A stretch of DNA of 17,719 nucleotides from Candidatus Sigynarchaeum calidifontis (GCA_030587475.2 JAUQYZ020000251.1:1-17719); one strand, 5' to 3'. Positions 9,588 to 17,719 are shown, counted from the stretch's first letter. Numbers and translations are program-made. Notes: a model not told the origin generated them from the letters alone.

Positions 9588-10079
9588 TTACACATTATCG
9601 ATATGCGAAAATCTCTCAAGCACCAAAAAAAAAAAAGGGATCGGGCATGTCGCGCATCAAAATTGAAGGGGAAACGAGCCATCCGACAGAAATCATCGCA
9701 CGGGACGTCGTGCACGCAGTGATCGGACGCCTTGCAGCGATCAAGGAAACCCTTCGATCGATGCCGACCTTGCCATGTTTCACGAAAAATACAAGCATTC
9801 AGATGAAGAATTCCTTTATTTGTTTAATAAAGGCGAACTCTTCGATGAAGATGATTTTTTCGCCTGAGAAGGCTCGTTAAAGATCGTGCGCGCCAACAAG
9901 CTGAAGCCACGGCTCAAGTTCTTGGTGAAGCCGTGACGATCTTGCCAGCCCGCCGAGGAAGTCGGTCGATTATCGTTTCGCTAAATTGCCACCCATTATC
10001 ATAAAACGGGTATCCAACTTTTTATATGTACATCCGGTTCGATATCATGAACATCCGAACAACATTCATGAGGTCTAGA

Positions 10080-10313
10080 ATGGCAAGGAGCAAGGTATCC
10101 GTGGTCAACCGGAAGGGCATGATCACGATCCCGGCGGATATGAGGGAAAGGTTCAATTTACATGAAGGATCACGGGTAATCGTCATGGAAATCGATGGCC
10201 ATCTCGAGATCGTTCCAATCGTCGACATAGAGAAATTTAGAGCGCATTCTTATGCCGAATACTCGAAATCCGAAGACGAAACACGAGCGCTCGACCTGGA
10301 GCTAGAAAAATGA
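10080..10313 (+). CDS. vapB: AbrB/MazE/SpoVT-family antitoxin (VapB)
   Basis: VNRKGMITIPADMRERFNLHEG swapped-hairpin motif; stop overlaps the start of the PIN gene; TTTATAT box near 10021. Confidence 0.88.
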   Translation: MARSKVSVVNRKGMITIPADMRERFNLHEGSRVIVMEIDGHLEIVPIVDIEKFRAHSYAEYSKSEDETRALDLELEK

Positions 10314-10738
10314 CAGGAACCGCTTGCTTCGACGCGGGAGTCTTTTCAATCTTTTTCTCGAAGGAATGCACCGCGAAGGTCACGAACGTCATGCAGCAGC
10401 TAAAAAAGGGCTCGCTGGCCGCGCAAGTGGTTTCACCGGTCGTGACCGAGATTTTATACCACGCATGCACTACCGAAGGAAAGGAGCGTGCCCAAATTCT
10501 CGTGAGCTCGTTGCTAGAAGACTACAACATCCACGTGATAACTCCTGACCGGGCTCTCCTGTACTCTGCCGGTATTCTACGATGCCAGCACCGCACCGCG
10601 CTGTCATACATCGATTGTATGTCGATCGCACATGCATTGAAAATGGGCATTCCCTTTCACACGACGGAGAAGAAATTGAAACAGATACCCGGTAACGTGC
10701 TCCAGCGGCTGAAGGTTGTGAAATACGAGTTGCCTTGA
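10310..10738 (+). CDS. vapC: PIN-domain ribonuclease toxin (VapC)
   Basis: FDAG, VVTEI, LSYIDC, TTEKKL acidic PIN motifs. Confidence 0.88.
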   Translation: MTGTACFDAGVFSIFFSKECTAKVTNVMQQLKKGSLAAQVVSPVVTEILYHACTTEGKERAQILVSSLLEDYNIHVITPDRALLYSAGILRCQHRTALSYIDCMSIAHALKMGIPFHTTEKKLKQIPGNVLQRLKVVKYELP

Positions 10739-11396: not shown

Positions 11397-11600
11397 ATCA
11401 AGTGCTGATTCTCCTCCTTGAGTCGCGTGTCGTGGGGAATGGGTTGCCGCTCCCTCGTGGCTACCACCCGTTTCGAGCCATTCCCGCGCCGCCGGTGCTC
11501 GTGTCGGGGAAATGCGCCGTGATCCGCATGAGATCGTGATCGAGAGGATCTGCAGGGCGTGTCGCACCATGCCGGGCTAGGTACCGGTAGGTAGAACCGG

Positions 11601-11674
11601 GCGGGCGTCATATAGTGGCAGTATGTGGCGTCGCCAGCGCTGACACGGGGGTTCGAGTCCCCCCGCTCGCACCA
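11601..11674 (+). tRNA. trnG: tRNA-Gly(GCC), C33, encoded CCA
   Basis: Acceptor GCGGGCG/CGCTCGC, loop TC-GCC-AG, T arm GGGGG-TTCGAGT-CCCCC, ACCA. Confidence 0.9.
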
Positions 11675-11689
11675 TCGCTTCCCACGCGC

Positions 11690-11763
11690 GCGTCGGTCGT
11701 CCAACGGCAGGGCCCGGGGCCTCCAACCCCGTGACGAGGGATCATCCCCCTCCCGTCGCACCA
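11690..11763 (+). tRNA. trnG: tRNA-Gly(TCC), atypical (C33, T-loop ATCATCC)
   Basis: Acceptor GCGTCGG/CCGTCGC with one mismatch, CGGGG-CCTCCAA-CCCCG, GAGGG/CCCTC T stem, ACCA. Confidence 0.75.
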
Positions 11764-11778
11764 TCTACCATGCACCGC

Positions 11779-11852
11779 GCTCCCGTGGTCTAACCGGCAA
11801 GGATGCCAGCTTCTCAGGCTGCGAGGTCCGGGTTCAACTCCCGGCAGGAGCA
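11779..11852 (+). tRNA. trnE: tRNA-Glu(CTC)
   Basis: GCTCCCG/CAGGAGC, CAGC-TTCTCAG-GCTG, CCGGG-TTCAACT-CCCGG. Confidence 0.85.
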
Positions 11853-11888
11853 CGACCACGCGACACTAAACGACCTAACGCGACACGA

Positions 11889-11964
11889 GCTTCCATGCTC
11901 TAGCGGCCAAGGAACTTGGACTTTCAATCCACGTGCGCGGGTTCAAATCCCGCTGGAAGCTCCA
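11889..11964 (+). tRNA. trnE: tRNA-Glu(TTC)
   Basis: GCTTCCA/TGGAAGC, TGGA-CTTTCAA-TCCA, GCGGG-TTCAAAT-CCCGC, TCCA. Confidence 0.9.
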
Positions 11965-11974
11965 CTCAAAGAAA

Positions 11975-12050
11975 GGCCCGTTCGGATAGCCCGGTAATCC
12001 ACCTGGCCGTGGCCCAGGCGTCGGACGTTCAAATCGTCCACGGGTCACCA
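11975..12050 (+). tRNA. trnH: tRNA with GTG anticodon (His), atypical (C33, A73, no encoded G-1)
   Basis: GGCCCGT/ACGGGTC, CCTGG-CCGTGGC-CCAGG, GGACG-TTCAAAT-CGTCC, ACCA. Confidence 0.78.
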
Positions 12051-12063
12051 ATATCACCACCAC

Positions 12064-12136
12064 ACCCCCGTAATTCAGCGGCCCAGAAGTCGGGGCCTTG
12101 AACCCCGGAACCGTGGTTCGAATCCACGCGGGGGTA
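12064..12136 (+). tRNA. trnQ: tRNA-Gln(TTG), C33
   Basis: ACCCCCG/CGGGGGT, CGGGG-CCTTGAA-CCCCG, CGTGG-TTCGAAT-CCACG. Confidence 0.88.
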
Positions 12137-12153
12137 TGACACGCCAGCAGAAC

Positions 12154-12229
12154 TGCCCCGTGATGTAACCGGCAAACAGGCGCGCCCCTGAAGCACGCAA
12201 TGGCGGTTCGAGCCCGCTCGGGGCAACCA
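12154..12229 (+). tRNA. trnQ: tRNA-Gln(CTG), C33
   Basis: TGCCCCG/CGGGGCA, CGCGC-CCCTGAA-GCACG, GGCGG-TTCGAGC-CCGCT, ACCA. Confidence 0.85.
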
Positions 12230-12292
12230 ACCCGGCCATGACGACAAACGAGCAAACCAACCAAGTAGCGAAAAAATGCATCAACAACCGGC

Positions 12293-12366
12293 GAGGTGGT
12301 ACGATAACGGCAGTCTCGCGGTCTCCAGAACTGCGGGCGTGGGTTCAACTCCTGCCCACCTCACCA
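12293..12366 (+). tRNA. trnW: tRNA-Trp(CCA), intronless
   Basis: GAGGTGG/CCACCTC, GCGGT-CTCCAGA-ACTGC, T loop TTCAACT, ACCA. Confidence 0.85.
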
Positions 12367-12738
12367 ACAAACCAAGCGTGAACGAAATGGCAGCACGGTT
12401 AGCGTTGAAATCAACAATCCCCACGCGGCCATCGGTCGCGGTGGTGTCCTATAGCACGAGGCAGCCCATGCAAGCCAGCAGCGCGCTGAAGGTGGTCGAC
12501 GTGATTTCAAGCATCGCCGGTGATGCACGGCTCGATTTTCCCTCGGCATATCTCGTCCCGCCATTCACGGCCGAGCCGGGGTCCCTCGCGGCCTATCGCC
12601 GCTGCTTGCCGGCACCAAAGCCATCGAGACGATCCCCGAACGGCGGCGCCGCCACGATCTTTTCTTTACGCCATGGTTCACGTGAGGTCAGTTATCTTCA
12701 AAAATATCGATTCTCTTGGCTATTCCGGCAATCTTTCT

Positions 12739-12757
12739 CGAAAAAGTTTATATATCG
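12739..12757 (+). promoter_or_regulatory. Second BRE-TATA promoter within the array
   Basis: CGAAAAAGTTTATATATCG, a copy of the 11206 motif. Confidence 0.65.
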
Positions 12758-12988
12758 GTGTCGATATCAATGATCTTGCAATTCAAATGAAAAAGAATTA
12801 CCACAAACCAAAATGGTGACCCGACCAAGAGACAACGAACGAGATCGCCTGCTAGCAAGAGACGATACCGGCACCACCGAGCACGGCCGGAGACGGCTAG
12901 CAGGGGATCGCTTGCCCGCAACGGGCACGATCCAGGCTTTCTACCCACCAGGACGATCAAGACCGTACCACGCGCCCAATGACACGAC

Positions 12989-13065
12989 GGGAGTGTCGTC
13001 CAACTTCGGCAAGACGCCAGGCCGTTAACCTGGACATGCAGGTTCGACTCCTGCCACTTCCGCCA
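12989..13065 (+). tRNA. trnN: tRNA-Asn(GTT), C33
   Basis: GGGAGTG/CACTTCC, CCAGG-CCGTTAA-CCTGG, GCAGG-TTCGACT-CCTGC, GCCA. Confidence 0.9.
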
Positions 13066-13083
13066 CCCGATCCCATTATCCAT

Positions 13084-13207
13084 GCGCCAGTAGCTTAGCA
13101 CATGATCTCCATCCCGTCCTTGCCAAGCGAAGTGCCACGGAGATTACATCGGATAAAGCATTTGTTTCACGAGCAAATAATCGTTGGTTCGATTCCAACC
13201 TGGCGCA
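13084..13207 (+). tRNA. trnV: tRNA-Val(CAC) with a ~50-nt structured D-loop insertion (about 13100-13148) carrying the repeated RNA motif
   Basis: GCGCCAG/CTGGCGC, D stem GCTT/AAGC, TTTGT-TTCACGA-GCAAA, GTTGG-TTCGATT-CCAAC; insert closed by ATCTCC/GGAGAT. Confidence 0.82.
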
Positions 13208-13222
13208 TCAATTTTTCTCCTT

Positions 13223-13296
13223 GGAAGCGTGGTGTAACGGCAGCACTTCGCACTGTCAGCGCGAGAATCGGGGTTAAATTCCCCGCGCTTCCGCCA
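13223..13296 (+). tRNA. trnD: tRNA-Asp(GTC), T-loop TTAAATT
   Basis: GGAAGCG/CGCTTCC, TCGCA-CTGTCAG-CGCGA, CGGGG/CCCCG, GCCA. Confidence 0.85.
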
Positions 13297-13594
13297 CCAT
13301 CGCTCGTTCGTGGGCTAAAATCGTTCTCCCCCCATTCCACGAAAAACATTAGTAATGGAGCGTCGATGGATATTCTTGGTTGATAACATGTGTGCAAATC
13401 GGTTTGACAAAAGCGCCGAGAATGAAGTCCGCAAGTAACAAATTTACACGGGAAATCTTCGCATGATGAAAGAAAAGCCGATAAATGGCACCGATCCTTC
13501 CCGATAGCCACGTGCCCAAGATATCTATCGGGGGCGACGTGAAGCGCCTGGCGAGAAAATTCGACGAGCAAAGGGGTTTCAAGGAGTCTTGAAT

Positions 13595-14155
13595 TCAATC
13601 GCACAACAAGCCGTTCCAGGTCTGGATGCATTCCTCCTTCGAGACATCGAATGCCTTCTCTACCTTGCTCCAGTCCGTTTGCGCCATGATGCCCTGCTTG
13701 TACCGCGAGTTGATGAACCGGGCGAGGTCGCGCGGTAATTGCTCGTTACTCGTGAAAATGTCGATGCAGAAAACGTGGTTCGATGCCTTGTCATAGACGA
13801 AGCCGGCTGTCTTCTCCGTGATGCTTATCAAGAGCTTGGCAGTCGGGGAAAAGAAGTAAAAATCGTTCATCATCTTCTCCTTGTGGATGAGGTAGCACGG
13901 GGAATCCCGGAGTTCCTTGATCGTGTCGATTGGTTTAACTCGCTGCAATTTCAAGGCCTCCTCCATGAAAGCCATGGTAAAAAGGACCACGTCGGCAATG
14001 GGCAAGGGGCGTGCAACAAGAACCGGGAACGGCACGACAACCCACTCGATCAACTTCGGCAGCAAGATGAGGCGTTCTGGCTGCCAGAAAAGCGACGCCA
14101 CCGGGTCATCGGGCAAGCCGAGGTCGTTCGCCTCGATTTCCAGCAGTTCGGCCAT
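13595..14155 (-). CDS. Hypothetical protein, antisense within the tRNA array
   Basis: Open frame with globular-protein composition (MAELLEIEANDLGLPDDP...ECIQTWNGLLCD). ATG 14155 preferred because the upstream ATG (14245) abuts tRNA-Phe. Confidence 0.7.
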   Translation of the reverse strand: MAELLEIEANDLGLPDDPVASLFWQPERLILLPKLIEWVVVPFPVLVARPLPIADVVLFTMAFMEEALKLQRVKPIDTIKELRDSPCYLIHKEKMMNDFYFFSPTAKLLISITEKTAGFVYDKASNHVFCIDIFTSNEQLPRDLARFINSRYKQGIMAQTDWSKVEKAFDVSKEECIQTWNGLLCD

Positions 14156-14246
14156 CGGTAACGAGACTTCATCCACCATGATCGTTGGATAGACCGAGGC
14201 CAAGGCATTTAATTGTATCATTGTGCGCTGGCAGACCATTATCATT

Positions 14247-14323
14247 GCAGTGATAGGCTAGCTGGGAAACCGCCCGGCTGAAAACCGGGACGTCGAGTGG
14301 TTCGAGTCCACTTCACTGCACCA
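14247..14323 (+). tRNA. trnF: tRNA-Phe(GAA)
   Basis: GCAGTGA/TCACTGC, CCCGG-CTGAAAA-CCGGG, AGTGG-TTCGAGT-CCACT, ACCA. Confidence 0.9.
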
Positions 14324-14348
14324 CCTTCCAATTCCACGTCGTACCTGC

Positions 14349-14428
14349 GAGCTCGTCGCCTAGCCAGGCAAGGGCAGCGGGCTTTTAACCCGTCTAGTTT
14401 GCGAGTTCAAATCTCGCCGAGCTCGCCA
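14349..14428 (+). tRNA. trnK: tRNA-Lys(TTT), 7-nt variable loop
   Basis: GAGCTCG/CGAGCTC, GCGGG-CTTTTAA-CCCGT, GCGAG-TTCAAAT-CTCGC, GCCA. Confidence 0.9.
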
Positions 14429-14477
14429 TTCTTTCTACAAATTCGAGGTGATTGACCGAGTAAGCCAACATCCACGA

Positions 14478-14610
14478 GGGCGGCCGCCGCCGTGCATCCG
14501 GGCCCGTGTTTCCACAACTGTCCTCTCCGAGAGGTGCCGTGGAAACTACATCGGCCACAGACTGTGAATCTGCATAGCCTCCTTGCCCGGCACAAAGGCG
14601 GCGGCCGCCC
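14478..14610 (+). ncRNA. Candidate Y-RNA-like ncRNA A (133 nt)
   Basis: Perfect 14-bp terminal stem GGGCGGCCGCCGCC/GGCGGCGGCCGCCC, inner GTG/CAC and CCGGG/CCCGG, conserved motif 14505-14554, anticodon-like arm CAGA-CTGTGAA-TCTG. Confidence 0.72.
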
Positions 14611-14691
14611 GTTATCCACCGCGATGATTCGAGGGGCACCACGACACGCGTGGCCCGATTCGGGCCACCACTTCTCTCCCCATTAGTCTTC

Positions 14692-14771
14692 GGGCTTGTC
14701 TCCTAGCCAGGCCAGGGAGGCGGACTCTTAATCCGCTCGTACCGCGAGTTCGATTCTCGCCAAGCCCACCA
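14692..14771 (+). tRNA. trnK: tRNA-Lys(CTT), 7-nt variable loop
   Basis: GGGCTTG/CAAGCCC, GCGGA-CTCTTAA-TCCGC, GCGAG-TTCGATT-CTCGC, ACCA. Confidence 0.9.
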
Positions 14772-15156
14772 AATATTCGTTGATACCCAAAATTCGCCGC
14801 CCGGAGCATTACCACCTGGAGTACGCGAGTGCAATGCTCGCCCGGGCGTGAAACGCTTGCCACCACGCGCCGCGGGGCGCTACCGGGGGGTTCTCACCGC
14901 CAAGTCCCCGTCCAGCGATCGCCTGCAGCGCCCGGTTCCAAGCAGGCTCGTTTTCCCCGGCGCGCCCGTCGGTGCGAGGCGCGCCGGAGCCCATCCCTTT
15001 CACGATCCATGCACGATTCTCGGTCCAAAAACGGCCAATTTCCCGCCGGAAGCACACGCCGCCTGTCGTAGCGGGTGAAAGCCCCGCGCAGGCGAACATG
15101 GATGCATCGGGCATCCAGGTTACCAACAACTGCGACCCACCCGGTCGCATTCCCCC

Positions 15157-15301
15157 GCATAGACGCAGCCGTGGACACGCGGAAGGGGGCCACGTGTTTC
15201 TGCATCCTGTCCTTCGCAAGGAGGTGCCGCGGAAACTACATCGTCACTCGAAAAGACGCTCCGGCCCCACACCGCGCCACAAGGGCTGTCTCGTGCAACC
15301 A
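15157..15301 (+). ncRNA. Candidate Y-RNA-like ncRNA B (~145 nt, ends in ACCA)
   Basis: Nested stems AGAC..AGCC/GGCTGTCT, GTGG/CCAC, GCGG/CCGC, GGGGCC/GGCCCC; conserved motif 15193-15243 with a compensatory change relative to ncRNA A and a GCAA tetraloop. Confidence 0.72.
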
Positions 15302-15357
15302 ATTTTTCGCACGTGATGGAAAACAACGACAGCACCAATCGCAACACCTGCGAAACG

Positions 15358-15379
15358 ACTGTCCTCGAACAAGAGGTGA
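15358..15379 (+). promoter_or_regulatory. Shine-Dalgarno (GAGGTGA) of the Ro60 gene inside a copy of the motif's apical hairpin
   Basis: ACTGT-CCTC-GAACAA-GAGG-TGA, about 10 nt before ATG 15389; compare AACTGT-CCTC-TCCGA-GAGG-TGCC in ncRNA A. Confidence 0.6.
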
Positions 15380-15388
15380 AAAAACAAT

Positions 15389-16948
15389 ATGGCAAGAAGC
15401 AAGTTCGGCAAGAAGGCTTCGATCGCGACCGACTATGGCGACGCTGACACCAGGAACTACGAGGCCTTCCCTGCCTGGTCGATGCCGCTCGACGAGCAAT
15501 TCCGCCAGCTCGCCTTCAACGGCATCATCGCGCACCAGTTCTACTGCAGCGAGGACGAGATCCTCCGGAGGGGCATGGGCATCATCGACAAGTTCGTCAA
15601 GGAAAACCCGGCGAAAGCGCTCGAGATCGCCGCGACCGCGCGCAACGAGGGCTTCATCCGTTCGGTCAACATCACCACGCTCGCCAAGGCAAGCACCAGC
15701 ACCGGGGCATTCAAGGAGTACTTCGACAAGATCGTCCTCACCCCGCGGGACATGGTGCAGTTCATCGACGTGATGCGCGCGAGCCGCGGCCTCGGCCGTG
15801 CCATCAAGGAGACCATGAACAAGTGGGTCGCGGCCAAGCTCGACGAGTTCTGGGCGATCAAGTATCGCAACCAGCTCCAGGACAGCATCCGGCTCGGTCA
15901 CGCCAAGTTCGACGACGAGGCCAAGGCCATGCTCGCCGACTATGTCATGGAGAACGGCGAGCAGGCGAAGCGCGACGCCATCGTGGCACGCTTCCCGGCC
16001 ATCAACGCGGTTGAAATGCTCAAGCGCATCAACCCGCTCGTCGACGAGGGTCGCGCCATCGATCTCATCACCGCGGCCCGCCTCGATTGGAACGTGGTCA
16101 AGGGCATCTTCCACCCGACCCCGGACATCTGGAAGGCCCTCGCGGAGCAGATGTCGGCCATTGCCCTCGTCCAGAACATCGCGTCGATCGAGAGGAACGC
16201 GGGCGCCGACTTCGCGCTCGATATCGTCAAGCGCAAGGTCACCGCGGAGTTTCTCAGGCGCGGCAAGGTCTTCCCGTTCACCCTCGCGCAGGCCTACATG
16301 CACGTCAACGACCGAGCCCTCAAGTCCGCCATCGGCAAGGTGCTCGACTCGCTGGCCCTCGCGCACGACTTCAGCAAGCTCGGCCGCGTCGCCGTGTGCC
16401 CGGACGTCAGCGGCTCGATGACCAGCCCGAGCTTCATCAACATCGTTATGCAACGTGCAAGCGGCAAAGGTGGCAAAGGTGACATCCCGGAGGGCAGCAT
16501 GCACGTGCCCATCCAGGTCGCGGCCATGATCGCGGGCATCCTCGCCGGCGCCACCCGCCACTCGCGGCTCCTCGCGTGGGACACCGAGGTCATGGACGAG
16601 CGCGCCCTCTTCGGCAAGGACAAGGAGTGGCGCACCCCGACCCGCATCATGGAGCGACTCATGCGCATCACCGGCGGCGGCACCTTCATGGAGGCCCCGG
16701 TCAAGTACCTCGTCGAGCACCGCGTCGACGTCGACACGTTCGTCCTCGTCACCGACTCGGAGGAGTGGGGCGAGGGTTGGCTCGCCTACTGGAAGAAATA
16801 CAAGCAGTCGCACAAGGCCGCGCGGGCGTTCCTCGTCAGGGTCGACCTCTACCCGACCCGCCCGTTCGGTGGCGACGACTGCGAGCGGCTTGGCATCACG
16901 CAGATCTACGGCTTCAGCGAGATGGCCTTCAAGGTCATGCTCCAGTAA
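15389..16948 (+). CDS. rsr: Ro60/Rsr-like TROVE-domain RNA-binding protein with C-terminal vWA domain
   Basis: N-terminal 'NYEAFPAW', QFY, 'ARNEG.IRS', 'GLGRAIK..WV', 'IKYRN..D.IRLGH', 'ALVQNI', 'VFPF' TROVE motifs; MIDAS DVSGSM, GGT, VTDSE; 519 aa. Confidence 0.9.
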   Translation: MARSKFGKKASIATDYGDADTRNYEAFPAWSMPLDEQFRQLAFNGIIAHQFYCSEDEILRRGMGIIDKFVKENPAKALEIAATARNEGFIRSVNITTLAKASTSTGAFKEYFDKIVLTPRDMVQFIDVMRASRGLGRAIKETMNKWVAAKLDEFWAIKYRNQLQDSIRLGHAKFDDEAKAMLADYVMENGEQAKRDAIVARFPAINAVEMLKRINPLVDEGRAIDLITAARLDWNVVKGIFHPTPDIWKALAEQMSAIALVQNIASIERNAGADFALDIVKRKVTAEFLRRGKVFPFTLAQAYMHVNDRALKSAIGKVLDSLALAHDFSKLGRVAVCPDVSGSMTSPSFINIVMQRASGKGGKGDIPEGSMHVPIQVAAMIAGILAGATRHSRLLAWDTEVMDERALFGKDKEWRTPTRIMERLMRITGGGTFMEAPVKYLVEHRVDVDTFVLVTDSEEWGEGWLAYWKKYKQSHKAARAFLVRVDLYPTRPFGGDDCERLGITQIYGFSEMAFKVMLQ

Positions 16949-16977
16949 GCCGGCAAGCCGCCACGTCGAAAACCAGT

Positions 16978-16988
16978 TTCCTTTTTTT
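16978..16988 (+). terminator. Possible oligo-T terminator after the Ro60 gene
   Basis: TTTCCTTTTTTT about 30 nt past the stop codon. Confidence 0.35.
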
Positions 16989-17007
16989 CCCAACAACGAC
17001 TATCGAA

Positions 17008-17082
17008 GCAAGGATGGCCCAGTCGCCCGGCAGCGTCCTGATAAGGCGCCTCACGCAGGTTCAATCCCTGCTCCTTGCACCA
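17008..17082 (+). tRNA. trnI: tRNA-Ile(GAT), D-loop lacks GG
   Basis: GCAAGGA/TCCTTGC, GCGTC-CTGATAA-GGCGC, GCAGG-TTCAATC-CCTGC, ACCA. Confidence 0.82.
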
Positions 17083-17104
17083 ATCCCGCGTTTTATCGAT
17101 CCAC

Positions 17105-17177
17105 GGGTTCAGAGCTCGAGCGGCAGAGCAACGGTCCAGTAAACCGTTTGGTGTGGGTTCGAGCCCCACTGGGCCCC
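17105..17177 (+). tRNA. trnT: tRNA-Thr(AGT), atypical (A34, C33, G8)
   Basis: GGGTTCA/TGGGCCC, D stem GCTC/GAGC, ACGGT-CCAGTAA-ACCGT, GTGGG-TTCGAGC-CCCAC. Confidence 0.78.
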
Positions 17178-17217
17178 CTTGCATGCTCATCAAGAAAGCG
17201 GAACAAGTAGCAGTAAC

Positions 17218-17295
17218 GGGCTCGTAGTTCTAACCGGATAGAACGCTTGGCTCGCATCCGAGAGGCTTGGGGTTCGAGTCCCCACGAGTCCGCCA
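17218..17295 (+). tRNA. trnA: tRNA-Ala(CGC)
   Basis: GGGCTCG/CGAGTCC with G3:U70, CTTGG-CTCGCAT-CCGAG, TGGGG-TTCGAGT-CCCCA, GCCA. Confidence 0.88.
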
Positions 17296-17299
17296 ACAC

Positions 17300-17373
17300 G
17301 TGCGGGTAGTCTTAACCTGGCAAAACCACCGGTTTGCAACCGGATGACTCGGGGTTCAAATTTCAACCCAATA
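17300..17373 (+). pseudogene. Degenerate tRNA-Ala(TGC)
   Basis: CCGG-TTTGCAA-CCGG arm and GGTTCAAAT are intact, but the T stem and acceptor stem are largely unpaired. Confidence 0.6.
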
Positions 17374-17466
17374 TATAGGCTGGATGGATGTCCCCGCCCG
17401 TACACTTCTCGAGGAATCCATACGGGAGACTCGCCAGGCGGGTCCACATTGCAGCATTCTTTCAGC

Positions 17467-17545
17467 GGGGACGTGGTCTAGCGGCACATATGATCCCGGC
17501 TTCGGAAGCCGGTGCACGGCGGTTCGAATCCGCCCGTTCCCACCA
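17467..17545 (+). tRNA. trnP: tRNA-Pro(CGG)
   Basis: GGGGACG/CGTTCCC, CCGGC-TTCGGAA-GCCGG, GGCGG-TTCGAAT-CCGCC, ACCA. Confidence 0.9.
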
Positions 17546-17552
17546 AAACCAT

Positions 17553-17648
17553 GGAACCGTAGCTTAACCGGGAAAGTGGTTTCATCCACACCGACAGCCC
17601 CCGACCGAAGCTCGGGCGTTCGGCGATCGAGGCGCCGCGGTTCCACCA
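17553..17648 (+). tRNA. tRNA-like gene (GAA anticodon, C33) with a ~21-nt D-region insertion and T-loop ATCGAGG
   Basis: GGAACCG/CGGTTCC+ACCA, CCCGA-CCGAAGC-TCGGG, CGGCG-ATCGAGG-CGCCG; extra hairpin GTGG-TTTCAT-CCAC. Confidence 0.7.
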
Positions 17649-17653
17649 TTTCC

Positions 17654-17719
17654 GGGGCCGTATTCTAGCGGTCGAAGATCCGGGCTTTGGGAGCCCGATG
17701 TCGTTGGTTCGAATCCAAC
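17654..17719 (+). tRNA. trnP: tRNA-Pro(TGG), truncated by the window end
   Basis: GGGGCCG start, CGGGC-TTTGGGA-GCCCG, GTTGG-TTCGAAT-CCAAC. Confidence 0.85.

What the first reader, a model, noticed from the sequence alone, without database searches (positions are those of the whole stretch)
11601..17648. Systematic C33 in place of the near-invariant U33 in eight array tRNAs
Loops: Gly TC-GCC-AG, Gly CC-TCC-AA, His CC-GTG-GC, Gln CC-TTG-AA, Gln CC-CTG-AA, Asn CC-GTT-AA, Thr CC-AGT-AA, Phe-like CC-GAA-GC. The stems mostly remain paired, so random decay is an unlikely cause of the same change in unrelated isotypes. Established: U33 forms the anticodon U-turn; tRNA C-to-U editing exists (C8 in Methanopyrus kandleri by CDAT8). 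Inference: either C33-to-U editing acts as an activation switch, or C33 helps evade anticodon nucleases.
Basis: partly seen in the sequence, partly recalled or inferred. Interest (0 to 1): 0.78.

Follow-up and report, generated by a model that had tools for sequence, protein, structure and literature searches.

The report
C33-rich spare tRNA array, Asgard archaeon
About half of the 31 spare tRNA genes clustered in this Asgard archaeon's chromosome carry C instead of the almost universal U next to the anticodon. The genes are otherwise conserved as working tRNAs, and C and U swap freely between related arrays, so these tRNAs do not depend on one of biology's most conserved nucleotides.

Summary
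The array runs off the window onto contig C82: 31 tRNA genes in about 8 kb, 16 of them with C33. Three independent assemblies show the same 31 genes on one contig.

The ordinary tRNAs have U33. That holds for 18 of 18 intron-less genes in this genome, about 15 intron-containing ones read by eye, and 15 of 15 in a same-genus genome.

This is not decay:
- Other invariant positions are kept in 28-30 of 30 genes.
- Anticodons hardly change between orthologues.
- Most stem changes keep pairing.
- tRNA bodies diverge about three times more slowly than spacers.

Position 33 differs in 7 of 43 orthologue comparisons, always C versus U and apparently in both directions.

Best reading (about 0.45): these are accessory decoder tRNAs in which position 33 need only be a pyrimidine. 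C-to-U editing is unsupported. Nuclease or modification evasion stays plausible but untested. Expression could not be tested.

Earlier notes of this scan report C33 enrichment in bacterial and phage tRNA arrays. This is an archaeal case with the highest fraction among the eight notes shown. I found no paper describing it.

The parts
11601..11674 (+). tRNA-Gly(GCC), loop TC-GCC-AG, C33 at 11632
   Evidence: The orthologue in L035 has T33.
11690..11763 (+). tRNA-Gly(UCC), loop CC-TCC-AA, C33 at 11721. It also has an odd T-loop (ATCATCC) and a T:T mismatch in the acceptor stem.
11975..12050 (+). tRNA-His(GUG), loop CC-GTG-GC, C33 at 12008, discriminator A73
   Evidence: The L035 orthologue (88% identical) also has C33.
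12064..12136 (+). tRNA-Gln(UUG), loop CC-TTG-AA, C33 at 12097. The housekeeping copy reads CT-TTG-AA.
   Evidence: The L035 copy also reads CC-TTG-AA.
12154..12229 (+). tRNA-Gln(CUG), loop CC-CTG-AA, C33 at 12187. The housekeeping copy reads CT-CTG-AA.
12989..13065 (+). tRNA-Asn(GUU), loop CC-GTT-AA, C33 at 13023
   Evidence: The L035 orthologue (91% identical) keeps C33.
17105..17178 (+). tRNA-Thr(AGU), loop CC-AGT-AA, C33 at 17137
   Evidence: C33 in G001 and L045; T33 in L031, L032 and L035.
17553..17648 (+). 96-nt tRNA-Phe-like gene with an extra hairpin between the D arm and the anticodon arm. Loop CC-GAA-GC, C33 at 17606, T-loop ATCGAGG, ACCA end.
   Evidence: It is conserved in G001 and L032; only the loop of the extra hairpin varies.
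11779..17545 (+). The U33 members of the window part of the array: Glu x2, Trp, Val(CAC) chimera, Asp, Phe, Lys x2, Ile, Ala, Pro(CGG)
17654..17719 (+). 5' part of tRNA-Pro(UGG), U33, cut by the window end. The array continues on contig C82 with 11 more tRNAs, 8 of them C33: Arg-GCG, Arg-UCU, Met, Val x3, Tyr, Leu-CAA.
15389..16948 (+). Ro60/Rsr-like protein (TROVE + vWA) embedded in the array. It is the marker gene used to find homologous arrays.
10026..10738 (+). MazE/AbrB-type antitoxin (10026-10313) and PIN-domain protein (10310-10738), a VapBC-like pair, ending about 860 bases before the first tRNA gene of the array
   Evidence: It is one of 25 PIN genes in the genome.

Best explanation
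This is a chromosomal accessory tRNA array of an Asgard archaeon. It holds 31 archaeal-type tRNA genes in about 8 kb, all on one strand, with a Ro60 gene and a GNAT gene inside it.

The genes are maintained as real, chargeable decoder tRNAs that duplicate the housekeeping set. In this accessory set, position 33 has lost its U-specific constraint and need only be a pyrimidine. C and U are effectively interchangeable, and about half the genes sit in the C state.

How it would work (inferred):
- The array is transcribed in a few polycistronic units, and its tRNAs are charged by the host synthetases.
- The all-U33 housekeeping tRNAs carry the bulk of decoding. The small cost of C33 (a weaker U-turn and slower decoding) is therefore visible to selection in them, but not in a reserve set that is seldom used.
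- A side effect predicted from published enzymology is that C33 tRNAs escape U33-dependent anticodon-loop modification. This covers t6A37 by KEOPS/TsaBCDE and cm5U34 by Elp3. They are therefore a chemically different pool.

Shown here: array-specific C33, purifying selection on the rest of the tRNA, retained identity elements, and spacer-like C/U turnover at position 33.

Inferred: low usage, the reserve role, and the modification consequences.
For: 1. Specific to the array. C33 occurs in 16 of 31 array tRNAs and in none of the housekeeping tRNAs: 18 of 18 intron-less genes, about 15 intron-containing ones read by eye, and 15 of 15 in the same-genus genome G001.

2. Specific to the position. 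U8 is kept in 28 of 30 genes, G53 in 30, T54 in 28, T55 in 28, C56 in 28, A58 in 29 and C61 in 30. Position 33 is 15 C and 15 T, never a purine.

3. The genes are under selection.
- tRNA bodies differ by 5-6% from the orthologous arrays G001 and L032, against 15-22% plus many indels in the spacers.
- Stem changes keep pairing in 68 of 90 changed pairs, counting the four largest comparisons, and 40 of those are double compensatory changes.
- Anticodon positions 34-36 differ in 0-1 of 43 comparisons.

4. Identity elements are retained (sequence): G3:U70 in both Ala genes, C1:G72 and a short variable arm in Tyr, A1:U72 in Met, and A73 in His as in the housekeeping His.

5. Position 33 turns over like a free site. 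It differs in 7 of 43 comparisons (16%), always C versus T. That is similar to the free positions 57, 59 and 60 and to spacer divergence. By parsimony the changes run both ways: T to C in Met of G000 and in Arg-UCG of G001, and C to T in Thr and Leu-CAA of L032.

6. Precedent that C33 is compatible with decoding: tRNA-Cys of Sulfolobales has C33 (PMC7668247), and initiator tRNAs of multicellular eukaryotes have C33 (PMC8887486).

7. C33 blocks t6A formation by E. coli TsaBCDE and yeast KEOPS. U33C abolishes Elongator activity (PMC11096365). G000 encodes an Elp3 homologue.

8. Bacterial long tRNA arrays are supernumerary, mostly silent and induced under translational stress (PMC8421152).
Against: - No expression or charging data could be obtained, so 'reserve decoder' is an inference.
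- If selection were merely weak, other small-effect positions might be expected to relax as much. They are only mildly relaxed: for example 5 of 30 D-loops lack GG and 2 of 30 T-loops lack TTC.
- Several isoacceptors keep C33 across all available arrays (Tyr in 4, three Val in 3, His, Gln, Asn). This could be selection for C, or simply too little divergence.
- Unchecked notes of this scan report that C33 recurs in phage and bacterial arrays. That recurrence hints at a benefit, not only tolerance.
- Only about 6-7 independent changes at position 33 underlie the rate estimate.
Confidence: 0.45

Rival explanations
1. Adaptive disguise. C33 is selected because it makes array tRNAs poor substrates for anticodon-loop nucleases (for example VapC/PIN-type tRNases), or for the modification enzymes whose products such nucleases need. 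The array would then be a nuclease-resistant backup set working together with Ro60/Y RNA and RNA-repair enzymes.
For: - A PIN-domain gene lies just upstream of this array, and a different one lies inside the L035 array.
- Ro60 is in every array, and an Rnl2-type RNA ligase follows Ro60 in L035.
- For both Gln tRNAs, position 33 is the only loop difference from the housekeeping copy.
- There is a published hypothesis that phage tRNAs escape VapC, PrrC and colicins through anticodon-loop changes (PMC10264068).
- C33 blocks t6A and Elongator modification in tested systems.
- His, Gln x2, Asn, Tyr and Val x3 keep C33 in every array sampled.
Against: - The two PIN proteins are unrelated to each other.
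- PIN genes are frequent in this genome, 25 in 5 Mb, so a neighbour within 1.5 kb has roughly a 5% chance expectation.
- Only half of the tRNAs carry C33, with no pattern by anticodon class.
- Position 33 reverts to U in close relatives (Thr, Leu-CAA, Arg-UCU in L032).
- One characterised anticodon nuclease, gamma-toxin, is indifferent to U33C (PMC2275089).
- No nuclease specificity is known for any archaeal PIN protein of this lineage.
Confidence: 0.27
2. C33 is edited to U33 after transcription by a cytidine deaminase, so the genomic C is silent or acts as an activation switch.
For: - C/T interchange at one site between close relatives is the pattern seen at known C-to-U editing sites. This comparison rests on general knowledge, not on a test here.
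- Archaeal tRNA C-to-U editing exists at position 8, by CDAT8 of Methanopyrus (established knowledge).
Against: - No deaminase gene is in or next to any of the arrays examined.
- The only PF00383 hit in the genome is a 188-aa ComEB/dCMP-deaminase-like protein.
- Of the two THUMP proteins, one is ThiI-like and the other is a short stand-alone domain. Neither has a recognisable deaminase domain.
- General C33 editing would make C33 neutral in housekeeping tRNAs too, yet 0 of 47 have it.
- Caveat: the genome is only about 89% complete.
Confidence: 0.07
3. The array RNAs are not mainly decoders. They would be tRNA-shaped ligands or decoys for the embedded Ro60/Y-RNA system or for tRNA-binding enzymes, so the ribosome-specific U-turn nucleotide is dispensable.
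For: - Ro60 is embedded in the array, and tRNA-like chimeras and a Y-RNA-like RNA lie among the tRNAs.
- Distant Asgard Ro60 genes each have a tRNA-like gene just upstream.
- Positions needed for folding are conserved, while the decoding-specific U33 is not.
Against: - Anticodons are the most conserved part of the genes.
- At least 19 of the 20 amino-acid specificities are present, grouped by amino acid. No standard tRNA-Cys or tRNA-Ser gene is called in G000. Ser genes lie at the end of the G001 and L032 arrays, and the interrupted tRNA-like gene at 17300-17405 may supply Ala or Cys.
- Purine 37 is kept in 29 of 30 genes.
- Synthetase identity elements are retained, including in Ala and Leu, whose synthetases do not read the anticodon.
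Confidence: 0.1
4. The C33 genes are decaying pseudogenes in a silent array.
For: A few members look damaged. Examples are the Gly-UCC T-loop and acceptor mismatch, the weak anticodon stem of Leu-CAA in G000, and the Val-UAC to UAU change in G001.
Against: - Other invariant positions are intact.
- There are compensatory stem changes.
- Divergence is three times slower than in spacers.
- C33 genes such as Tyr, Val-GAC and Arg-UCU are 99% identical between genera-level relatives.
- The array is conserved down to 54-68% Ro60 protein identity.
Confidence: 0.03

Closest known systems
Bacterial long tRNA arrays: tRNA array units (Tran et al. 2016, PMC4758250) and L-arrays (Santamaria-Gomez et al. 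2021, PMC8421152)
   Same: - More than 20 tRNA genes at more than 2 per kb, all in one orientation.
- They supply supernumerary isodecoders that duplicate the housekeeping set.
- Their phylogenetic distribution is patchy.
- They are linked with RNA-repair genes: rtcB in Anabaena, Ro60 and Rnl2 here.
   Different: - The host is an Asgard archaeon and the tRNAs are archaeal in type (C1:G72 class I Tyr, A1:U72 Met, an intron-containing Ser in related arrays).
- The array sits between ordinary metabolic genes with no mobility gene in view.
- Half of the members have C33, a feature these papers do not mention.
Archaeal tRNA gene clusters (Morgado and Vicente 2019, PMC6333295)
   Same: Clusters of archaeal-type tRNA genes.
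   Different: That survey reported clusters only in Halobacteria and Methanobacteria. It does not cover Asgard archaea, Ro60 or C33.
Nuclease-insensitive phage tRNAs (van den Berg et al. 2023, PMC10264068)
   Same: An accessory tRNA set whose anticodon loops differ from the host's, with PIN/VapC-type genes in the neighbourhood.
   Different: - This array is not on a phage.
- The paper does not mention position 33.
- No cleavage specificity is known here.
- Resistance is untested.
Natural C33 tRNAs: initiator tRNA-Met of multicellular eukaryotes (PMC8887486) and tRNA-Cys of Sulfolobales (PMC7668247)
   Same: Functional tRNAs with C33. C33 changes recognition by modification enzymes.
   Different: Those are single, fixed exceptions in housekeeping tRNAs. 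Here 16 different isoacceptors carry C33, and it is polymorphic between close relatives.
Bacterial rsr (Ro60)-Y RNA-rtcBA RNA-repair loci
   Same: Ro60 next to tRNA-like RNAs, and an RNA ligase in a relative (L035).
   Different: This locus has a full tRNA array in place of one or two Y RNAs. The ligase is Rnl2-type, not RtcB. The host is archaeal.

Membership tests
tRNA array unit / L-array | At least 20 tRNA genes at a density of at least 2 per kb | tested here: met
   31 tRNA genes lie in about 7.9 kb of the single-contig copy L041. The window alone holds 20 in 6.1 kb.
tRNA array unit / L-array | Genes in one orientation and close enough to be co-transcribed | tested here: met
   All genes are on the + strand. 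Many spacers are 5-40 bases. The array is interrupted by three protein genes.
tRNA array unit / L-array | Supernumerary: duplicates housekeeping isoacceptors | tested here: met
   Housekeeping copies of His, Gln x2, Glu, Lys, Ala, Pro, Arg and others exist elsewhere in the genome.
tRNA array unit / L-array | Patchy distribution consistent with horizontal spread | tested here: inconclusive
   The array was found in only 2 of 400 sampled genomes of the phylum. However, a B12-binding radical-SAM gene lies on the upstream flank both here and in L035 (not tested for orthology), and no mobility genes were seen. Vertical descent within a small clade is therefore equally possible.
tRNA array unit / L-array | Silent, then induced under translational stress | not testable with these tools
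Nuclease-insensitive phage tRNAs | Encoded by a phage or virus | tested here: not met
   The flanks are metabolic genes. The two viral contigs with a related Ro60 carry no array and no C33 tRNA.
Nuclease-insensitive phage tRNAs | Anticodon-loop differences from host tRNAs at a known cleavage or recognition site | tested here: inconclusive
   Loops differ from the host copies, and for Gln only at position 33. No cleavage site is known for any nuclease of this organism.
Nuclease-insensitive phage tRNAs | Demonstrated resistance to cleavage | not testable with these tools
   This needs a biochemical assay.
C-to-U edited tRNAs (CDAT8 type) | A cytidine deaminase with a tRNA-binding (THUMP) domain in the genome | tested here: not met
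   There is one dCMP-deaminase-like protein and two THUMP proteins without a recognisable deaminase domain. The genome is about 89% complete.
C-to-U edited tRNAs (CDAT8 type) | C in the DNA, U in the mature RNA | not testable with these tools
   No RNA reads could be obtained.

The most novel reading that the evidence does not exclude
The array is one half of an archaeal RNA-conflict island. It would be a 'stealth' tRNA set whose C33 keeps the tRNAs unmodified at positions 34 and 37 and invisible to U33-reading tRNases, including the neighbouring PIN toxins. Ro60/Y RNA and an RNA ligase would clear or repair the damaged housekeeping tRNAs. C33/U33 toggling would then record an arms race. The same logic would explain the C33 enrichment in bacterial and phage arrays that earlier, unchecked notes of this scan report.
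Probability: 0.2. Interest if true: 0.85.

Novelty: new variant of a known kind. Interest (0 to 1): 0.62.

Why it matters
U33 is one of the most conserved nucleotides in biology because it makes the anticodon U-turn. Here a whole set of tRNAs is demonstrably under purifying selection yet treats C and U at that position as equivalent. The other tRNAs in the same cell never do.

This gives a natural experiment on what U33 is really needed for: decoding speed, modification-enzyme recognition or nuclease recognition. It also extends long accessory tRNA arrays, with an embedded Ro60, to Asgard archaea.

If C33 proves to be a functional mark, it would define a second, chemically distinct tRNA pool used under RNA damage or conflict. 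It would also explain a pattern that this scan's earlier, unchecked notes report in phage and bacterial tRNA arrays. I found that pattern in none of the papers searched.

Tried and rejected
- Rfam found no Y RNA or other family besides tRNA in 11400-17719, even at E up to 5.
- DNA search of 41 relatives with the first part of the array found only single housekeeping tRNA matches.
- The first genome-contig scan with the single Ro60 protein found nothing. The alignment-based scan gave four loci, of which only the same-genus one has an array.
- Distant Ro60 loci (29-39% identity) and two viral contigs carry no arrays and no C33.
- I considered that the PIN, the unknown ORF and the GNAT are conserved array cargo. 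Rejected: the PIN proteins and the ORFs of this array and of L035 are unrelated.
- I considered that C33 follows anticodon class (U34 tRNAs, ANN decoders, GUN family). Rejected: no pattern is visible. 4 of 8 ANN decoders and 4 of 8 U34 tRNAs have C33.
- ARAGORN in intron mode over the whole genome gave many false calls with very long 'introns'. I read the intron-containing housekeeping tRNAs by eye, and that count (about 15) is approximate.
- ARAGORN's Trp-CCA call for 17553-17648 was rejected on conservation grounds.

Full report
**What is there**

The window is a whole contig (C212) of a 4.99-Mb, 54% GC metagenome-assembled genome. The genome is archaeal: ribosomal protein S8e is present, a family that rings only in the four archaeal controls. 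It belongs to the Asgard phylum. The same-genus genome is titled Promethearchaeota, and a 71%-identical Ro60 is named Candidatus Sigynarchaeota.

ARAGORN finds 19 tRNA genes on the + strand at 11601-17648. Rfam adds one more, cut by the window end. The last 19 bases of the window equal the first 19 of contig C82, which starts with 11 further tRNA genes. Three other NCBI assemblies with an identical Ro60 carry the whole region on single contigs of up to 27.7 kb. They confirm the join and show the same 31 genes.

Three protein genes lie inside the array:
- a Ro60/Rsr-like gene (window 15389-16948);
- a GNAT acetyltransferase (on C82);
- an unassigned ORF (13595-14245, minus strand).

Several non-standard tRNA-like RNAs also lie in it. 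Both flanks are ordinary metabolic genes. No integrase or virus gene is in view. A MazE-PIN pair ends about 860 bases before the first tRNA.

**The observation**

For the eighth, the 96-nt element at 17553-17648, ARAGORN proposes Trp-CCA. An alignment with the orthologues in G001 and L032 shows that this 'anticodon' lies in the only variable stretch, the loop of an extra hairpin. The arm CCCGA-CCGAAGC-TCGGG is invariant.

On C82, eight more tRNAs carry C33: Arg-GCG, Arg-UCU, Met, Val-GAC, Val-CAC, Val-UAC, Tyr and Leu-CAA. The total is 16 of 31.

**Controls**

Outside the array, housekeeping tRNAs have U33:
- all 18 credible intron-less tRNAs of this genome;
- about 15 intron-containing ones, including the initiator, read by eye;
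- all 15 non-array tRNAs recovered from the same-genus genome G001.

Fisher tests give 8e-7 for this genome alone and 3e-10 for the two genomes together. One further ARAGORN call with C33 on C233 has a poorly paired acceptor stem and a 6-nt T-loop, and I discounted it.

**Homologous arrays**

Using Ro60 as a handle, I found homologous arrays in these places:
- G001, same genus (Ro60 C-terminus 86% identical);
- metagenome contigs L031 and L032 (89-90%), L033 (71%) and L035 (68%; a 68-kb contig);
- NCBI and ENA contigs L045 (83%) and L046 (54%).

Gene order is largely shared. ARAGORN-called C33 counts are 10 of 20 in G001, 6 of 18 in L032, 6 of 17 in L035, and 1 of 6, 1 of 6 and 1 of 8 in the short pieces.

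C33 is kept in every available orthologue of Tyr, Val-GAC, Val-CAC, Val-UAC, His, Gln-CUG, Gln-UUG, Asn and Arg-GCG. It differs in the following:
- Thr-AGU: C in G000, G001 and L045; T in L031, L032 and L035.
- Met: C only in G000.
- Arg-UCG: C only in G001.
- Arg-UCU and Leu-CAA: T in L032.
- Gly-GCC: T in L035.

The array was not found in the other roughly 398 genomes sampled from the phylum. More distant Asgard or viral Ro60 loci have no array.

**Decay or function**

Other invariant positions are intact in this array: U8 in 28 of 30 genes, G53 in 30, T54 in 28, T55 in 28, C56 in 28, A58 in 29 and C61 in 30. Position 33 is 15 C and 15 T, with no purine.

Between orthologues:
- tRNA bodies differ by 6.2% (G001) and 4.9% (L032). 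The spacers between them differ by 22.5% and 15.0% in aligned columns and are full of indels.
- Of the stem pairs that changed, pairing is kept in 16 of 26 (G001), 19 of 25 (L032), 25 of 31 (L035) and 8 of 8 (L033). Many of these are double compensatory changes.
- Anticodon positions 34-36 differ in 1, 0 and 1 of 43 comparisons.
- Position 33 differs in 7 of 43 comparisons (16%). It is the most variable position of the loop and is comparable to the free T-loop positions 57, 59 and 60. It exceeds the rest of the loop (p = 0.003) and the invariant positions (p = 7e-5).

Every change at position 33 is a C/T transition. By parsimony on the Ro60 similarity order, the changes run in both directions.

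Synthetase identity elements are retained:
- G3:U70 in both Ala genes;
- C1:G72 with a short variable arm in Tyr (the archaeal type);
- A1:U72 in Met;
- A73 in His, as in the housekeeping His.

These are maintained, chargeable, anticodon-specific tRNAs in which position 33 alone behaves as an unconstrained pyrimidine.

**Mechanism**

The housekeeping tRNAs of the same cells never have C33. So neither the ribosome nor a general editing activity makes C33 free of cost. The cost must either be invisible to selection in the accessory set or be offset there by a benefit.

The reasons are the spacer-like, bidirectional turnover and the roughly even C:U ratio. Natural C33 tRNAs also show that decoding is possible. 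Examples are tRNA-Cys of Sulfolobales and metazoan and plant initiators. Bacterial long arrays are likewise supernumerary, usually silent and switched on under translational stress.

A consequence can be predicted from published enzymology. C33 is an anti-determinant for t6A37 formation by E. coli TsaBCDE and yeast KEOPS. U33C abolishes Elongator activity on U34. This genome encodes an Elp3 homologue. C33 tRNAs are therefore probably hypomodified in the anticodon loop.

The benefit reading, evasion of nucleases or modification enzymes, stands at about 0.27. In its favour:
- a PIN gene lies beside this array and another inside the L035 array;
- Ro60 is in every array;
- an Rnl2-type RNA ligase follows Ro60 in L035;
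- the phage-tRNA evasion hypothesis has been published.

It is weakened by these points:
- the two PIN proteins are unrelated;
- the genome holds 25 PIN genes;
- there are reversions to U;
- one characterised anticodon nuclease is indifferent to U33C.

Editing stands at about 0.07. No candidate enzyme was found, and the housekeeping argument speaks against a general activity. Only RNA data can exclude it.

A non-decoding, Ro60-ligand role stands at about 0.10 and is hard to square with the conserved anticodons and identity elements. Decay stands at about 0.03 and is contradicted.

**Comparison with what is known**

The locus meets the formal definition of a tRNA array unit or L-array: at least 20 genes, at least 2 per kb, one orientation and supernumerary. 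Those were described in bacteria. The one survey of archaeal tRNA clusters found them only in Halobacteria and Methanobacteria.

None of the array papers I searched mentions position 33, and two full-text searches found no paper linking C33 with tRNA arrays.

Earlier notes of this scan are AI notes that I did not check. They report C33 enrichment of roughly 10-33% in bacterial and phage tRNA arrays, one with an embedded Ro60. The present case is archaeal, has the highest fraction among the eight notes shown, and adds an evolutionary-rate argument.

I class it as a new variant of a known kind.

**Limits**

- There is no expression, charging or modification evidence.
- The rate estimate rests on six or seven independent changes.
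- The intron-containing housekeeping tRNAs were read by eye.
- The genome is about 89% complete, so the absence of a deaminase is not proven.

Noticed in passing
window 17300-17405: A tRNA-like gene missed by ARAGORN and Rfam. The acceptor, D arm and anticodon arm (loop TTTGCAA) are normal, but about 30 bases are inserted after the T-loop TTCAAAT, before the returning CCCC strand. The whole 171-base interval is 97% identical in L032, well above spacer identity. It may be a tRNA with a non-canonical intron.
   Followed up: partly
window 14478-14613: A structured RNA between the two Lys tRNAs. It is closed by a perfect 14-bp GC helix and contains a His-type anticodon-like hairpin, CAGA-CTGTGAA-TCTG. 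The folding z-score is -3.9 for the 263-base interval 14429-14691 that contains it. It has no Rfam match. It is a candidate Y RNA for the Ro60 gene downstream.
   Followed up: partly
L047 9806-9880; L048 9750-9830; L049 9649-9721: Distant Asgard Ro60 genes (36-39% identity) have no array. Each has one tRNA-like gene 120-280 bases upstream with a shared core (GGTTACTTCGCCTG..TAAGCG) and a different 'anticodon' in each. This looks like a tRNA-mimicking Y RNA module.
   Followed up: no
L035 11635-12600 and 13071-13514: In the related array on a 68-kb metagenome contig, an Rnl2-family RNA ligase directly follows Ro60, and a PIN-domain gene sits among the tRNAs. A preprint reports Ro60 together with an RNA ligase in Asgard 'Nidhogg' viruses.
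   Followed up: partly
window 17105-17178; L035 15032-15107: The arrays encode A34 anticodons, Thr-AGU and in L035 Ala-AGC. From general knowledge, archaea normally avoid these and eukaryotes convert them to inosine. No housekeeping Thr-AGU was seen.
   Followed up: no
C82 (L012) 1121-1195: The array tRNA-Met has the initiator-type A1:U72 pair, but its D-loop has no GG and its T-loop reads TGAGAGT instead of TTC-purine-A. Both are conserved in G001 and L032. It is a co-varying loss of the D/T-loop contact.
   Followed up: no
L020 5328-5399 compared with C82 (L012) 1388-1464: The orthologue of Val-UAC has the anticodon UAU (Ile-type) in the same-genus genome. It is an anticodon switch on an otherwise roughly 90-93% identical tRNA body.
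   Followed up: no
window 11975-12050; G000 contig C29 4051-4125: Both the array and the housekeeping tRNA-His have discriminator A73. The array copy has no encoded G-1 (the base before it is A). I did not check the base upstream of the housekeeping copy. This is a eukaryote-like arrangement.
   Followed up: no
G000 contigs C192, C115, C127, C135 and others: Many housekeeping tRNAs of this genome, including the initiator, carry introns, some at non-canonical sites. The array tRNAs are almost all intron-free.
   Followed up: no
C82 (L012) 500-1000; G000 C53 41392-41740; L020 4188-5162: GNAT acetyltransferase genes recur as array cargo: one in G000, two in G001 (one a tandem double GNAT). A paralogue about 70% identical in DNA lies elsewhere in the genome.
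   Followed up: no
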